A stretch of DNA of 64,000 bases from a phage: the NCBI GenBank assembly GCA_012813795.1, contig GCA_012813795.1_4087.1, one strand, 5' to 3'. Position 1 is the stretch's first letter; each line of letters begins with the position of its first letter. The translations under genes were made by a program, and so were the position numbers. This document shows positions 234 through 13,555 of this stretch, piece after piece. The notes beneath the pieces were generated by a model, which saw only the letters and a list, made by a program, of their open reading frames with translations, did not search any database and was not told where the DNA came from.

Positions 234-281
234 GGGTTTTCTTTTTTGATTAAATATACTATAATGAATAAAGGAGGAAAT

Positions 282-1439
282 ATGTTACCTTTTGTTAGAA
301 TGTTTGAGTACGGGAATGTAGCACCTATACAGCCAAAAATTATCCAAATGGAGTGTTTAAATGGTGGAGTTTATTTACTATACGATAATGGTGAATTATA
401 TTATCGTGGACGAAATAGCAATGGACTAGCAGGGGATGGGACAAACACATCAAAGAGTAGTTCATGGATTTTGTCTAATACTAATGTTGCAATGCTAAGT
501 AAAGGTGTGAGTAATTATGCTGTTGTTAGGAAAAAAGATAATACATTTTGGATGACAGGATCTTATAATTTATTTGATGTATCTGGGTGGACTAAGTATA
601 GATGGAATGATGTAACCAGTAATTTTAGTGAAGTTAGTTCTAATTTAATTTGTGTATATTGTAATGGTGGTGGTGTGTTAACACTTCGCAGTGATGGAAC
701 GTTGTATGCTTTCGGAACTAGTACAAGTGGTCAACTTGGCTTTGGAAGTGCAACGACAATCAACACATTTACTAAAGTGGCTGAATCAGTATCCACGAAT
801 CCAGATAACGTTATTGCCGTTTTAGGTGGTTGTTATTATATAGATGAAAATAATAGGTTGTTTGCAACTGGTGTTAACACAAACGGACAATTGGGTATTG
901 GTAGCACGGTCAATGCCCTTTCATTTACGTTGGTGAATACAGGGACAACTTATCCAGTGGTTAAGTCTATTATGGCTAATGCAAATGGTGCAAATATATT
1001 GGCCTATAAATCGGACGATTCTGCATATGTAACAGCGGCGAGTGGATATTTGTCGTATATAGGTACGGGTCAAACTTCTGGTATTGGGACTATATTTTCA
1101 AATTATGCTGCATTGAATAACCCAGACAACTTTAATATATTGAAGTTAAGTACATCTCTCGGTAATACAAATGCAATGCTTGTAGTAACCGACAAAGGTG
1201 TATATGCAACTGGTATGAATAATTACTACCAACTCGGAACTGACAACTCAACAAACCAGACTTCATATGTCAAAGTTGTTGGATTACCAGATGATGCTGA
1301 CACAACAACTATAAGATTTCTTGGTGGTACAGCAGAAGGAAGTGCATGTGTCTATCGTGATAAATTATATGTTTCTGGTGTTCTGGGGCAATGGGGGGCA
1401 GGCTACCCAAAATTCACTGAATTGGAAATTCCGTATTAA
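282..1439 (+). CDS. RCC1-like repeat beta-propeller protein, array paralog 1
   Basis: ATG 282 after AAGGAGG; N-terminus MLPFVRMFEYGN; repeated (Y/F)xxGxNxxGQLGxG motifs; track ORF 246 extends upstream through RBS. Confidence 0.75.
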   Translation: MLPFVRMFEYGNVAPIQPKIIQMECLNGGVYLLYDNGELYYRGRNSNGLAGDGTNTSKSSSWILSNTNVAMLSKGVSNYAVVRKKDNTFWMTGSYNLFDVSGWTKYRWNDVTSNFSEVSSNLICVYCNGGGVLTLRSDGTLYAFGTSTSGQLGFGSATTINTFTKVAESVSTNPDNVIAVLGGCYYIDENNRLFATGVNTNGQLGIGSTVNALSFTLVNTGTTYPVVKSIMANANGANILAYKSDDSAYVTAASGYLSYIGTGQTSGIGTIFSNYAALNNPDNFNILKLSTSLGNTNAMLVVTDKGVYATGMNNYYQLGTDNSTNQTSYVKVVGLPDDADTTTIRFLGGTAEGSACVYRDKLYVSGVLGQWGAGYPKFTELEIPY

Positions 1440-1445
1440 TATCAT

Positions 1446-1475
1446 GCCAGTACTTGATACTGGCTTTTTCTTTTT
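1446..1475 (+). terminator. rho-independent terminator hairpin (GCCAGTA-cttga-TACTGGC) + T-run
   Basis: perfect 7-bp inverted repeat followed by tttttcttttt; directly after paralog 1 stop. Confidence 0.7.
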
Positions 1476-1510
1476 GGATTAAATATGATATAATGAATAA
1501 AGGAGGAAAT

Positions 1511-10951: not shown

Positions 10952-12304
10952 ATGTTACCTTTTGTAAGAATGCTAGAGTATGGGAATAAAGTTGAAGTTC
11001 CTACTGTGAAGAAATTCGACTCCATTGGTATGGGTCATGATAGGAATGGTGGTGGTAATTGGTTTGGTGCAATATTAGCATCAAATGGAAATTTATATGG
11101 TATTGGTCAAACAAAATATGTTTCTTTTGGTATAACTCCAACCAATGGTGCAGGCGTTGAATTAGTAAGGAAAAATGTAAACAATTTTTGGTTACTATCA
11201 AATGGAATAATAGTACAAGATAATGATGGATCATATCATTTTTGTGGTGTATATGCAAATGGGATATTCACACATTCAAGTATGAATACAGCACCTTTTA
11301 TAACAAATGGTTTTATCAATGTATCTTCTTATTTTGCGAACGTAGGTGAAGTTGTAGAGATGGTATTCTGTGGTGGGTATGATAAAGGACCAGCAACTTC
11401 AACAACATCACCAGCATACACATCAAAATATAGTTGCATTTTGGCAGCATTAAACAGCAATGGCGAAATCTGGTATATGGGATTGTCAATACAAGGTTTA
11501 ATAAACAACTCAACATCGGATTACTACTTTACTTCTTTTACTAAAGATAATCAATTGACACAAAAAGTAGTTTCATTAAGACGCACAATAGACATGTCAC
11601 ACAATAATATGTATTTTGTTGGCAATAGACCTGTACTTTATGCCAAATTAGAAGATGGTACAATCGTAGGTAAGGGATATAATATACGATATGGTATACA
11701 AACACCAGCTAGTGGGAACCAAGTGATTAAAACGTGGACTACAGTGGCTGTAATCGGAACAGCAGATGAATTTGATGCGACAAACGAAGGCATGATGTAC
11801 TGCTCAAATTCACAACTATATCGCTGTGGTGGTGGTGGTGGTTTTTCTTTCTGGAATGGAAGTACTAGTATATATTATATGGGCTACAACGTTGGTATGT
11901 TTTTAATCGGTGCGAATGACGTCAACCGTGTGGTGGGTGGTTTTAACGTCCTAACGACAGGGATAAAAGATGACATAGGTATAAATGTACCGACTTCATC
12001 CAGTACTAAAATACGAATGAACTACTGTGGAACTGTAATTTTTGAACCAGGAACAACATCAATATATAAAGCACATGGTGTTTATAGTGATTACTACGCT
12101 AGTCCTTCGTGGCAAGCGGGAGCAGTCGCTTCATTTACATATGAAGACATTGGCATTCGAATTAAAGATGCTATGTATGTTGGTGGTACTCTTGGGTTTA
12201 CAACATATGGATTATTAGTGGTTAGTACTGAAGGTAGGGTATATTGGAGAGGTGTGTACAACGGTACAACATATCAAACACTCACAGAAATACAATTGTT
12301 GTAA
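10952..12304 (+). CDS. divergent array paralog 10 (450 aa) with conserved leader
   Basis: ATG 10 nt after paralog 9 stop, GGAGAG RBS; MLPFVRMLEYGN; Gly-rich but no clear GQLG repeats. Confidence 0.65.
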   Translation: MLPFVRMLEYGNKVEVPTVKKFDSIGMGHDRNGGGNWFGAILASNGNLYGIGQTKYVSFGITPTNGAGVELVRKNVNNFWLLSNGIIVQDNDGSYHFCGVYANGIFTHSSMNTAPFITNGFINVSSYFANVGEVVEMVFCGGYDKGPATSTTSPAYTSKYSCILAALNSNGEIWYMGLSIQGLINNSTSDYYFTSFTKDNQLTQKVVSLRRTIDMSHNNMYFVGNRPVLYAKLEDGTIVGKGYNIRYGIQTPASGNQVIKTWTTVAVIGTADEFDATNEGMMYCSNSQLYRCGGGGGFSFWNGSTSIYYMGYNVGMFLIGANDVNRVVGGFNVLTTGIKDDIGINVPTSSSTKIRMNYCGTVIFEPGTTSIYKAHGVYSDYYASPSWQAGAVASFTYEDIGIRIKDAMYVGGTLGFTTYGLLVVSTEGRVYWRGVYNGTTYQTLTEIQLL

Positions 12305-12313
12305 TACTAATAT

Positions 12314-12340
12314 GCCAGTACTTCAAGTGCTGGCTTTTTT
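12314..12340 (+). terminator. rho-independent terminator hairpin + T-run
   Basis: GCCAGTAC-ttcaa-GTGCTGGC (one mismatch) then tttttt. Confidence 0.6.
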
Positions 12341-12399
12341 GTATATTATATAAGATATATTTTAATTAAATACGTAGTATATCATAAGGAGAATAATAA

Positions 12400-13555
12400 A
12401 TGCTACCATTTGTGCAAATGTTTGTATATGGGAAAAAAGATCCTGCACCACCTATTAAGAAAATAGCTTCATCTGATACATGTATATTTGTTCTTATGAA
12501 GGACCGGGACGTTATATGGGAGAGGTTCACAGGAATTTGGTCAGTTAGGTGTTAACAGCACAACCACACAGACAACATGGACTATATGTAATACTAATGT
12601 TGATGATGTTTGGTGTGGTTATGAGACTACAATGATAAAAAAGTTCGATAATACCATGTGGTATGCTGGGACAGGGGCATCCGTTGGTATAGGTAATTCA
12701 TCAAGTACATCATGGGCATCATTGAGTACTGTTTTTAACAGAATAACGTCCGATGGTCGAGTAGTTAAACAAATAGTTTTAAGTGCAGGATCAATGAGTA
12801 TTCTGTGCACAGATAACACTATATGGAATACAGGATATGGTTCATATGGTCAATTAGGAAATGGAAGTTGGGATGATTCTATCAGTTCTTTTGTCCAAGG
12901 AACCGTTCCAAATGGAATAACACCCAGTTCTATCGTTGGTTTATTCCTAATGAATGGATTTATTAGTACTGAAGGTTTACTGTATTACACTGGTGCAGTA
13001 GCTGGTGTAGGAACAACAGACATGACTATATATAATAGATATACATTATGTTCACAGGTTCCTAATACATATCGAGTACTTGATTATTTTTCAAATGCCA
13101 GTTATTTTGGTATAGCTATTGCACAGAATAAGAGTACATCAAGAGTATATTCATATACTGGTGGTGGGCAGTATTATGGTCAATTAGCAAATGGGTCAAC
13201 CGCCTCAACATACATATCATTAAGGCAGACAACACAGCCGAGTGGGGATATAATACGTTGTGGCGTGGGTTATTCATATTTTTCTCATCATATAATCACC
13301 AGTACTGGTGTTTATGCAGCAGGGCAAAACACTGAAGCTGAACATATTGGTCAATTGGGTACAGGTATACAATCAAACGCATCAACCTATACTAAATGCG
13401 TAATACCAGCAGAGATGAATATGAATAATGTATATGTAACAAGCACAACTTATAGAACGTACTTAACTGATGGTTATCATGTTTATAGTACTGGACAATA
13501 CACAAGTGAAGGTGGAATAGCCAGTAATTCATTTGTTAAAGATTCACCTATTTAA
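12400..13555 (+). pseudogene. array paralog 11, interrupted by +1 frameshift at gaccggg 12502-12508
   Basis: ATG 12400 after AAGGAG; MLPFVQMFVYGK leader stops at 12553-12555; downstream frame (track 12632..13555) opens at 12508 and carries GQLG motifs. Confidence 0.55.

What the first reader, a model, noticed from the sequence alone, without database searches (positions are those of the whole stretch)
246..12400. Array promoters have a -10 element but no -35, and the predicted transcript starts at the Shine-Dalgarno
Each cassette has TATAAT about 8 nt before AAAGGAGG (for example TATAAT 6005-6010, GGAGG 6018-6022, ATG 6027) with nothing TTGACA-like 17 bp upstream; the upstream context TTGATTAAATATAG is AT-rich and includes TAAATA. 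This resembles -10-only late promoters served by a phage-encoded factor, and differs from the TTGACA-N17-TATAAT promoters of the - strand block. The window does encode a sigma-70 family protein (37360-38322). Transcripts would have almost no 5' leader.
Basis: partly seen in the sequence, partly recalled or inferred. Interest (0 to 1): 0.55.

Follow-up and report, generated by a model that had tools for sequence, protein, structure and literature searches.

The report
Late-promoter cassettes in jumbo coliphage
The repeated sequence between the genes of this jumbo E. coli phage's RCC1-like gene array is a terminator followed by an ordinary phage-T4-style late promoter (core TAAATA) and a ribosome-binding site, so the lack of a -35 box is real but already has a known explanation.

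Summary
Eight exact copies of TATAATGAATAAAGGAGG lie in front of array genes (0.16 expected by chance). None has a -35 match better than 3 of 6, and only one has an extended -10 TGn. The - strand carries 56 near-consensus sigma-70 promoters against 13 expected.

The window is an Asteriusvirus jumbo coliphage, 98% identical to phage A4.

- TAAATA precedes 33 of 54 A4 structural genes, 21-57 nt before the ATG.
- It is strongly depleted elsewhere (40 in the window vs 122 expected; observed/expected 0.24 in A4). TATAAT occurs at chance level.
- It is present at every array junction with a spacer of about 70 nt or more in the six phages that have such junctions, and before the first array gene of seven of the eight phages. 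That includes junctions where TATAAT has become TATAAC or is gone.
- It matches the late promoters already predicted for the related phages CBB and GAP32.
- Array proteins are virion components in phAPEC6 and GAP32.
- A gp55-like late sigma is encoded in A4, outside the window.

Each cassette is therefore a terminator, a T4-type late promoter and a ribosome-binding site. The predicted start lies inside TATAAT, giving a leader of about 20 nt. The sigma at 37360-38322 has regions 2-4 and is unlikely to be the factor. This is a new member of a known kind, of modest interest.

The parts
241..284 (+). Cassette 1, the first array gene. No hairpin. T-tract 237-247, TAAATA 251-256, TATAAT 260-265, AAAGGAGG 270-277, ATG 282. 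It shares the divergent intergenic region with a - strand sigma-70 promoter (TTGACA 233-228, TACTAT 210-205).
1446..1513 (+). Cassette 2. Terminator hairpin 1446-1464 plus T-run, TAAATA 1480-1485, TGA, TATAAT 1489-1494, Shine-Dalgarno (SD), ATG 1511. This is the only copy with TGn.
   Evidence: dG -10 kcal/mol
3566..3634 (+). Cassette 3. Hairpin 3566-3586, TAAATA 3601-3606, TATAAT 3610-3615, ATG 3632.
   Evidence: dG -12
4781..4849 (+). Cassette 4. Hairpin 4781-4799, TAAATA 4816-4821, AAG, TATAAT 4825-4830, ATG 4847.
5963..6029 (+). Hairpin 5963-5981, T-run 5982-5993, TAAATA 5996-6001, TAG, TATAAT 6005-6010, GGAGG 6018-6022, ATG 6027. Predicted late start at about 6006-6008.
   Evidence: The start site is inferred from T4 geometry.
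7182..7251 (+). Cassette 6. Hairpin 7182-7204, TAAATA 7217-7222, TATAAT 7226-7231, ATG 7249.
8444..8513 (+). Cassette 7. Hairpin about 8444-8468, TAAATA 8480-8485, TAA, TATAAT 8489-8494, ATG 8511.
9698..9764 (+). Cassette 8. Hairpin 9698-9716, TAAATA 9731-9736, TATAAT 9740-9745, ATG 9762.
12314..12402 (+). Diverged cassette 9. Hairpin 12314-12334, TAAATA 12367-12372, CGTAG, then TATATC with no TATAAT, AAGGAG, ATG 12400. TAAATA is kept while the -10-like box is lost.
   Evidence: dG -14
13583..13588 (+). GGG-TAAATA-CAT-TAGAAT in front of the last + strand ORF (13567/13609-14115). Same promoter type as in phage EJP2 cassettes.
43429..43434 (+). In-window control. CA-TAAATA lies 35 nt upstream of the only other + strand gene, a virion structural protein (43470-44627, PHROG 10468).
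37360..38322 (-). Phage sigma-70 family gene with regions 2, 3 and weak 4, RpoD/RpoS-like, in the early block. It is probably not the one that reads the cassettes.

Best explanation
Each cassette is a self-contained transcription unit boundary with three parts:
- an intrinsic terminator (GCCAGTA-loop-TACTGGC followed by a T-run);
- a T4-type late promoter whose specifying element is TAAATA, in the -10 position, with no -35 element;
- a strong Shine-Dalgarno sequence.

Inferred mechanism: late in infection, host core RNA polymerase carrying the phage's gp55-like late sigma recognises TAAATA. It melts the A/T-rich TAG-TATAAT segment just downstream and starts about 6 nt after the box, inside TATAAT. 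The resulting mRNA has a leader of about 19-21 nt that contains AAAGGAGG.

On this reading TATAAT is the A/T-rich opening and initiation segment. It is a strong version of a 'TATA' element that is enriched at the same offset in this phage's other late promoters. It is not a sigma-70 -10 box.

The genes served encode RCC1-like virion proteins, so late timing is expected.

What is shown: the motif anatomy, its distribution, its depletion, its conservation, the presence of the late sigma in the near-identical genome, and the virion location of homologues. What is inferred: which factor is used, the start site and the timing.
For: 1. Identity. The window is 98% identical to Asteriusvirus A4.

2. 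Association with structural genes. In A4, 33 of 54 annotated structural genes have TAAATA ending 21-57 nt before the ATG. These are most of the genes that have an intergenic upstream region at all. The cassettes have it at 25-26 nt.

3. Depletion.
- TAAATA: 40 in the window vs 121.9 +/- 12 expected. In A4, 131 vs 536, observed/expected 0.24. That is the lowest of all 15 A4T2 permutations and among the four most depleted hexamer pairs.
- TATAAT: 140 vs 123 in the window, and observed/expected 1.13 in A4. TATAAT alone therefore cannot specify a promoter here.

4. Downstream 'TATA'. TATA at +3 to +5 after TAAATA is enriched in structural-gene promoters: 13 of 36 vs 5 of 85 other sites, p = 7e-5. 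A4_550 has terminator-TAAATA-AAG-TATAAT.

5. Conservation across phages. Array loci of eight phages were compared: window, G17, 121Q, EJP2, Munch, Hallingskeid, GAP32 and Yen9-04. Long junctions occur in six of them.
- Every array junction with a spacer of about 70 nt or more has TAAATA, and so does the first array gene of seven of the eight phages (the Munch locus is cut upstream of its first gene).
- Of 49 array gene starts with TAAATA within 64 nt upstream, the hexamer 3 nt downstream is TATAAT in 33, -10-like in 8 and not -10-like in 8.
- The 8 include TATAAC three times, which lacks the essential -7 T.

6. Published predictions. Late promoters predicted for the related phage CBB include CTAAATATAATATA, CTAAATATGATATA and GTAAATAC... 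(PMC5259590, Table S7).

7. Late sigma. A gp55-like late sigma is present in A4: A4_588, PHROG 12791 at 1e-151 and PHROG 234 at 3e-17.

8. Virion location. Eight array proteins were found in phAPEC6 virions by mass spectrometry (MS) (PMC7247149), and GAP32 gp001 in GAP32 virions.

9. T4 precedent. T4 late promoters are an 8-bp A/T box at -10, followed by an A/T-rich segment, with no -35 (PMC2988020).
Against: - No transcript 5' ends exist for any Rak2-like phage, so the start site, timing and factor are all inferred.
- The base before TAAATA is never A in the arrays (T 33, G 15, C 1 of 49). It is A in 25 of 33 A4 structural-gene promoters and in the T4 consensus.
- A -10-like hexamer exactly 3 bp downstream is far better conserved in the arrays (41 of 49, across several genera) than in other late promoters (full TATAAT in 2 of 36). 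It may therefore have a function of its own.
- The cassette matches only 6 of 8 positions of T4's TATAAATA.
- The CBB authors found no gp33 or gp45 homologues in that clade, so the T4 activation mechanism may not carry over.
- The late sigma was seen in A4, not in this window.
Confidence: 0.68

Rival explanations
1. Bipartite or dual promoter. TAAATA and the TATAAT 3 bp downstream are both functional. Either two overlapping promoters exist (a late gp55-type promoter plus a sigma-70-family -10-only promoter, with starts about 9 nt apart), or one factor reads a 15-bp (T/G)TAAATA-N3-TATAAT element that is specific to the RCC1 array.
For: - The hexamer at N3 is TATAAT or -10-like (A2, T6) in 41 of 49 array cassettes from window/G17/121Q, EJP2, Munch, Hallingskeid and GAP32. 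Meanwhile the 3-nt spacer and the downstream leader vary freely.
- Only 2 of 36 other late promoters have the full TATAAT.
- Array cassettes never have the consensus A before TAAATA, 0 of 49 vs 25 of 33. That suggests a distinct subclass.
Against: - TATAAC variants persist in G17 and 121Q, and 8 of 49 cassettes have no -10-like hexamer.
- 7 of the 8 copies have no TGn to compensate for the missing -35.
- TATAAT is not avoided in the genome.
- Cassettes within one phage are copies of each other, so there are only about 5 independent lineages.
- A 'TATA' at this offset is a general feature of this phage's late promoters.
Confidence: 0.16
2. TATAAT is the -10 box of a -35-less promoter read by a sigma-70-family holoenzyme (host sigma-70, possibly remodelled, or the phage sigma at 37360-38322). 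Transcripts start at or 1-2 nt before AAGGAGG.
For: - A perfect TATAAT is present in 8 of 8 cassettes, 7 nt before GGAGG, with no -35.
- A sigma-70-family gene is present in the window.
- In related phages the distance from the hexamer to the SD is never less than 6 nt, so an SD-first transcript is geometrically possible everywhere.
Against: - A bare TATAAT occurs 140 times in the window, at chance level.
- Only 1 of the 8 copies has TGn.
- The -7 T is lost in three related cassettes, and the hexamer is absent in others that keep TAAATA.
- The window's sigma has regions 2-4 like RpoD/RpoS, so a -35-type contact is expected.
- The gene products are virion proteins, and the clade's late genes use TAAATA.
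Confidence: 0.1
3. There is no internal promoter. The cassette is only a terminator or attenuator plus a ribosome-binding site. The array is read through from one upstream promoter, as in Yersinia phage fHe-Yen9-04, where the paralogues are tightly packed.
For: - In Yen9-04, and in most of the Munch and Hallingskeid arrays, junctions are 8-15 nt with no cassette, and only the first gene has TAAATA.
- The conservation within this window could reflect duplication alone.
Against: - Every hairpin (dG -10 to -14 kcal/mol plus a T-run) is followed by TAAATA at a fixed distance, in every phage examined.
- The first cassette has the promoter part without any hairpin.
- TAAATA is otherwise strongly avoided.
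Confidence: 0.04

Closest known systems
Bacteriophage T4 late promoters (TATAAATA; gp55 late sigma, gp33 co-activator, gp45 sliding clamp)
   Same: - A single A/T box in the -10 position.
- No -35 element.
- An A/T-rich segment just downstream that opens.
- Drives virion genes.
- A gp55-family sigma is encoded by the phage.
   Different: - The core here is the 6-mer TAAATA, with T or G before it. That is 6 of 8 matches to the T4 box.
- The late sigma is 279 aa, longer than T4 gp55 (about 185 aa, from my own knowledge).
- No gp33 or gp45 homologues were reported for the clade.
- A -10-like TATAAT sits 3 bp downstream.
Predicted late promoters of Rak2-like jumbo phages CBB and GAP32 ('ATAAATA' motif; PMC5259590, Table S7)
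   Same: - Same core, [A/C/G]TAAATA followed by A/T-rich sequence.
- Individual CBB sites are identical to cassette variants here (CTAAATATAATATA, CTAAATATGATATA).
- Found upstream of structural genes.
   Different: - Those are MEME predictions in another genus, and no promoter annotation was seen in the Asteriusvirus records fetched.
- The array cassettes have T or G rather than A at -1, and a fixed N3-TATAAT.
- They are fused to a terminator and repeated eight times.
PeSLs (promoter-early stem-loops), the composite terminator/promoter cassettes of T4-like phages (PMC2839356, PMC4122927)
   Same: - A repeated intergenic unit of about 70 bp made of a stem-loop terminator, a promoter, an SD and a start codon.
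- It flanks variable genes and insulates each one transcriptionally.
- The - strand block of this window has true PeSL-like units (GGGTTGACTTCGGTCAGCCCTTTTTGCTATAAT).
   Different: - In the array the promoter part is late-type, not a sigma-70 early promoter.
- The stem-loop lies wholly upstream of it.
- The repeat extends into the first 12 codons of the gene.
- A role in recombination was not tested.
E. coli sigma-70 extended -10 (TGnTATAAT) promoters
   Same: Promoter recognition is confined to the -10 region, with no need for a -35.
   Different: The TGn that defines the class is present in only 1 of the 8 cassettes. A separate TGTGnTATAAT class does exist in this phage, upstream of replication genes.

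Membership tests
T4-type late promoter | An A/T box in the -10 position that matches the late-gene consensus of the phage group (core TAAATA, found upstream of structural genes) | tested here: met
   TAAATA is present in all 9 long junctions of the window. The same core precedes 33 of 54 A4 structural genes.
T4-type late promoter | Match to the full T4 8-mer TATAAATA | tested here: not met
   The cassettes read ATTAAATA, 6 of 8. The position before TAAATA is T, G or C in 49 of 49 array cassettes, against A in T4 and in 25 of 33 A4 structural promoters.
T4-type late promoter | No conserved -35 element | tested here: met
   The best match to TTGACA at spacers of 15-19 bp is 3 of 6. That region is the terminator's T-run.
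T4-type late promoter | A/T-rich segment immediately downstream of the box | tested here: met
   TAG-TATAAT-GAATAAA follows the box. TATA at +3 to +5 is enriched in A4 late promoters, 13 of 36 vs 5 of 85.
T4-type late promoter | A gp55-family late sigma encoded by the phage | tested here: met
   A4_588 (L010:920-1759) hits PHROG 12791 at 1e-151 and PHROG 234 'late sigma transcription factor' at 3e-17. It lies in the 98%-identical genome, outside this window. It has no Pfam, NCBIfam or PDB match.
T4-type late promoter | Serves late (virion) genes | tested here: met
   From the literature: 8 RCC1 array proteins are in the phAPEC6 virion proteome, and GAP32 gp001 is in GAP32 virions. There are no expression-timing data.
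T4-type late promoter | Start about 6 nt downstream of the box; dependence on the late sigma, a co-activator and the sliding clamp, and on replication | not testable with these tools
   No transcript-end data were found for any Rak2-like phage. The CBB authors report no gp33 or gp45 homologues.
sigma-70 -10-only / extended -10 promoter | Consensus -10 hexamer | tested here: met
   TATAAT is present in 8 of 8 cassettes.
sigma-70 -10-only / extended -10 promoter | TGn at -15/-14 to compensate for the missing -35 | tested here: not met
   Present only at 1489 (TGA). The others read TAC, TAG, AAG or TAA.
sigma-70 -10-only / extended -10 promoter | The hexamer, especially -11 A and -7 T, is conserved in orthologous cassettes and carries enough information to mark promoters | tested here: not met
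   TATAAC occurs three times, and 8 of 49 cassettes have no -10-like hexamer. TATAAT occurs at chance frequency, 140 vs 123.
PeSL-type composite terminator/promoter cassette | A repeated intergenic unit combining a stem-loop terminator, a promoter, an SD and a start codon | tested here: met
PeSL-type composite terminator/promoter cassette | The promoter is a strong sigma-70 early promoter, with the stem-loop between or overlapping the -35 and -10 boxes | tested here: not met
   Not met for the array, which has a late-type promoter downstream of the hairpin. Met for the - strand units at 18226, 20440, 21169, 24277 and 28560.
PeSL-type composite terminator/promoter cassette | Mediates recombination or shuffling of the flanked genes | not tested
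   The number and order of paralogues differ between A4, G17, 121Q and the window. That is consistent with shuffling, but no breakpoints were analysed.

The most novel reading that the evidence does not exclude
The RCC1-array cassettes may be a distinct bipartite promoter subclass, (T/G)TAAATA-N3-TATAAT. It is conserved across at least five genus-level lineages of Rak2-like jumbo phages and is tied to this one family of virion proteins. In it, a T4-type late box and a sigma-70-type -10 box are fused 3 bp apart. Two different sigma factors might use them, giving two starts 9 nt apart, one of which begins at the Shine-Dalgarno. Alternatively one factor might read both boxes, giving timing distinct from the ordinary ATAAATA late genes.
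Probability: 0.16. Interest if true: 0.5.

Novelty: new member of a known kind. Interest (0 to 1): 0.3.

Why it matters
Practically, it gives a usable rule for annotating late transcription units in Asteriusvirus and related jumbo phages, which are phage-therapy candidates with more than 80% of genes unannotated. The rule is TAAATA 21-57 nt upstream of a start codon, often directly after a terminator.

It also places the puzzling RCC1-like paralogue array in the late, virion-protein regulon, with each paralogue insulated as its own transcription unit.

It separates three promoter classes in one 64-kb window and its parent genome. That gives a clean system for asking how a phage with both a region 2-4 sigma and a gp55-like sigma schedules host RNA polymerase.

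It does not reveal a new kind of promoter. The absence of a -35 is what T4-type late promoters are known for.

Tried and rejected
- A -35 hidden in the hairpin loop. TTGATA at 5971-5976 lies 28 bp from TATAAT and 19 bp from TAAATA. The loop sequence is not conserved: it is inverted at 3566-3586 and reads CTCTG at 9698, with other variants in G17 and 121Q. Rejected.
- CTGGCA or CTGGCT (the 3' hairpin arm) as a -35 for the upstream overlapping TATAGT/TATAAT. The match is 3-4 of 6, and it is absent from cassette 1, which has no hairpin. Rejected.
- The CBB-type 'middle' motif TGAAACG-N-TGnTATAAT. A relaxed version gave 19 hits in A4 against 7 in shuffles, none in a promoter-like position and none in the cassettes. 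Not the class used here.
- The search for related loci with a 14-sequence paralogue alignment failed because no stretch was conserved enough. Annotated records were used instead.
- PDB, Pfam and NCBIfam searches with the late sigma gave nothing. Only PHROGs identify it.
- Literature searches for mapped transcript starts in Rak2-like phages found none: phAPEC6, CBB, RaK2 and PA5oct papers.
- A4 250001-305999 was not fetched, so the genome-wide counts cover about 300 of 355 kb.

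
Full report
**What the window is**

The first 12.5 kb and the 30-50 kb stretch match Asteriusvirus jumbo coliphages. The best match is Escherichia phage A4, at 96-98% identity.

The + strand block 246-13555 is an array of 11-12 paralogous genes for RCC1-like repeat proteins (Pfam RCC1/RCC1_2, PHROG 4219). All begin MLPFxRM..YGN.

From 14.1 kb to the end, the - strand carries about 110 small genes. These include a sigma-70 family gene (37360-38322) and five tRNAs.

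**Checking the observation**

- The 18-mer TATAATGAATAAAGGAGG occurs eight times without mismatch, always 4-5 nt before the ATG of an array gene. Shuffles give 0.16.
- The cassette reads: hairpin GCCAGTA-loop-TACTGGC, TTTTCTTTTTT, GAT, TAAATA, TAG, TATAAT, GAATAAAGGAGG, AAxx, ATG.
- The hairpins fold at -10 to -14 kcal/mol and are followed by a T-run, so they are ordinary intrinsic terminators.
- At spacers of 15-19 bp upstream of TATAAT, the best TTGACA match is 3 of 6. Only the copy at 1489 has TGn.
- The - strand has 56 near-consensus TTGACA-N16-18-TATAAT sites and the + strand 6, with about 13 per strand expected.

Three limits apply.
- The junctions at 2404/2417 and 10941/10952 have no cassette.
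- The junction at 12305-12399 is a diverged cassette.
- The eight copies are near-identical duplicates of one another.

**Which element carries the information**

Three base pairs upstream of every TATAAT lies TAAATA. Five lines of evidence point to this hexamer as the promoter determinant.

1. *Association with structural genes.* I assembled about 300 kb of A4. Of 54 annotated structural genes, 33 have TAAATA ending 21-57 nt before the ATG. Those lacking it are mostly translationally coupled to the upstream gene. The one structural gene inside this window (43470-44627, PHROG 10468) has CA-TAAATA 35 nt upstream.

2. *Depletion.* TAAATA is one of the most avoided words in the genome.
   - Window: 40 occurrences vs 121.9 +/- 12 expected.
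   - A4: 131 vs 536 expected, observed/expected 0.24. That is the lowest of all 15 permutations of A4T2 and among the four most depleted hexamer pairs.
   - Of the 131 A4 sites, 46 lie upstream of structural genes or within the array region.
   - TATAAT occurs at chance level: 140 vs 123 in the window, observed/expected 1.13 in A4. It occurs repeatedly inside the array genes themselves.
   
   A signal that works alone must be rare elsewhere. TAAATA is rare elsewhere and TATAAT is not.

3. *Conservation across phages.* I compared the homologous arrays of G17, 121Q, EJP2, Salmonella phage Munch, Erwinia phage Hallingskeid, Cronobacter phage GAP32 and Yersinia phage fHe-Yen9-04. The Xanthomonas phage XaC1 locus has M-F-P-I-type starts and was not scored.
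   - Long junctions occur in six of the eight phages (window, G17, 121Q, EJP2, Munch, Hallingskeid).
   - Every junction with a spacer of about 70 nt or more has TAAATA 25-34 nt before the ATG.
   - So does the first array gene of seven of the eight phages (the Munch locus is cut upstream of its first gene).
   - Tight junctions generally lack it. The exceptions (window 2417, G17 12911, Hallingskeid 7001) have TAAATA in or at the end of the upstream coding sequence.
   - Of 49 array gene starts with TAAATA within 64 nt upstream, the hexamer 3 nt downstream is TATAAT in 33, -10-like in 8 and not -10-like in 8.
   - The last group includes TATAAC three times. That variant lacks the -7 T that sigma-70 needs. 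It also includes the window's own diverged cassette at 12367.

4. *Published predictions.* The late promoters predicted by MEME for the related phage CBB, and reported for GAP32, are [A/C/G]TAAATA followed by A/T-rich sequence. Individual entries such as CTAAATATAATATA and CTAAATATGATATA are identical to cassette variants here (PMC5259590, Table S7).

5. *Virion location.* The products are virion proteins. Eight 'DNA condensation' (RCC1) array proteins are in the phAPEC6 virion proteome (PMC7247149). GAP32 gp001 was found in GAP32 virions.

**The factor**

A4 encodes a 279-aa 'sigma factor for late transcription' at 200920-201759. It matches PHROG 12791 (1e-151) and the general gp55-type PHROG 234 (3e-17). 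This lies about 90 kb outside the region covered by the window.

The sigma inside the window aligns with RpoD and RpoS models across regions 2, 3 and 4, and it sits among early-type promoters. Such a sigma would be expected to use a -35-type contact.

A4 also has a third promoter class upstream of replication genes and of the late sigma gene itself. It reads TGTGnTATAAT with (G/A)GACA about 17 bp upstream. That class is a more natural client for the window's sigma. This last point is inference.

**Mechanism proposed**

T4 late promoters are an 8-bp A/T box at the -10 position. They are followed by an A/T-rich segment that opens, and they have no -35. They are read by gp55 on host core polymerase (PMC2988020).

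Applying that geometry, TAAATA at 5996-6001 occupies -11 to -6, and the start falls at about 6007. The flanking A residues at 6006 and 6008 are the most likely starts. That gives a leader of 19-21 nt containing AAAGGAGG.

In A4 structural promoters, the sixth base after the box is A in 24 of 33 cases. A TATA at +3 to +5 is enriched: 13 of 36 vs 5 of 85, p = 7e-5. The cassette's TAG-TATAAT therefore looks like a strong version of a normal late-promoter feature.

Each cassette ends the upstream transcript and restarts transcription, so each paralogue is its own late unit.

Related phages show this arrangement is optional. Yen9-04 runs the whole array as one operon behind a single GGG-TAAATA.

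**What does not fit neatly**

- Array cassettes never have the consensus A before TAAATA (T 33, G 15, C 1 of 49, against A in 25 of 33 structural promoters).
- The -10-like hexamer at exactly N3 is much better conserved across genera than in other late promoters. The spacer and leader around it drift.

Read-through with no internal promoter is unlikely, because every hairpin is followed by the otherwise avoided TAAATA, and cassette 1 has the promoter without a hairpin.

**Comparison with what is known**

The closest known systems are:
- T4 late promoters;
- the predicted CBB/GAP32 late promoters of the same phage clade;
- for the composite terminator-promoter-SD architecture, the PeSL cassettes of T4-like phages (PMC2839356, PMC4122927).

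The - strand block contains true PeSL-like units, with the -35 TTGACT forming the 5' arm of the terminator hairpin. The array uses a late-promoter analogue.

No mapped transcript starts exist for this phage group. The class assignment rests on sequence statistics, comparative conservation, proteomics from the literature and analogy to T4.

**Verdict**

It is right that this is a late promoter with no -35, only a -10-region element, read by a phage factor. It is probably wrong on the element, the factor and the leaderless-style start. This is a new member of a known kind, of modest interest (0.3).

Noticed in passing
window 18226-18197, 20440-20411, 21169-21140, 24277-24248, 28560-28531 (- strand): PeSL-like composite units GGGTTGACTTCGGTCAGCCCTTTTTGCTATAAT. 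The -35 hexamer TTGACT is the 5' arm of a GC-rich terminator hairpin, and TATAAT follows the T-run with an 18-bp spacer. The same sequence appears among the CBB terminators (Torf515/518/520).
   Followed up: partly
window 14100-64000, - strand: 53 of the - strand's 56 near-consensus sigma-70 promoters lie in this block (56 - strand sites in the whole window against about 13 expected), roughly one per two small genes. This marks the block as an early, host-polymerase-driven region.
   Followed up: partly
window 282-13555 and loci L001, L003-L005, L011, L013, L014: Every array paralogue in 8 phages starts M-[LI]-P-F-x-R/K-...-Y-(G)-N, with M1, P3, F4 and N12 invariant. So does the short non-RCC1 'virion structural protein' that follows the array (GAP32_002, Hallingskeid CDS0082, Munch_534). 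This could be a virion- or capsid-targeting or assembly signal on otherwise hypervariable proteins, reminiscent of the T4 internal-protein targeting sequence.
   Followed up: no
window 9762-10941 and 12400-13555: Two paralogues appear split by frameshifts. One is 9762-10571 plus 10549-10941, whose A4 counterpart A4_239 is intact at 391 aa. The other is 12400-12555 plus 12632-13555.
   Followed up: no
A4 genome (L006-L010); one copy in window about 27765-27755 (-): A candidate 'middle' promoter class: TGTGnTATAAT with (G/A)GACA about 17 bp upstream. It lies in front of replication and recombination genes (ssDNA-binding protein, RNase H, primase, Clp proteins) and, in a shorter TGC-TATAAT form, of the late sigma gene. 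It differs from the TGAAACG class reported for CBB.
   Followed up: partly
window 54563-54536, about 53702-53675, 53102-53074 (- strand); tRNAs at 51131-55260: Three copies of TTGACTAAATAGTTCAGTA(C/T)TG-(TATAAT/TGCAAT/ATATAAT) around a cluster of five tRNA genes (Thr, Asn, Met, Ser, Ser). Here TAAATA overlaps the -35 of a sigma-70-type promoter.
   Followed up: no
A4 genome-wide (about 300 kb): Besides TAAATA, the most depleted hexamers are GACATC/GATGTC (0.15), GTCTCA/TGAGAC (0.17) and CTCAGA/TCTGAG (0.22). This may reflect restriction-site avoidance.
   Followed up: no
window 2398-2403: A TAAATA overlaps the stop codon of the 1511-2404 gene, only 13 nt before the ATG at 2417, at a junction that has no cassette. 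It may be a chance occurrence or a vestigial promoter.
   Followed up: no
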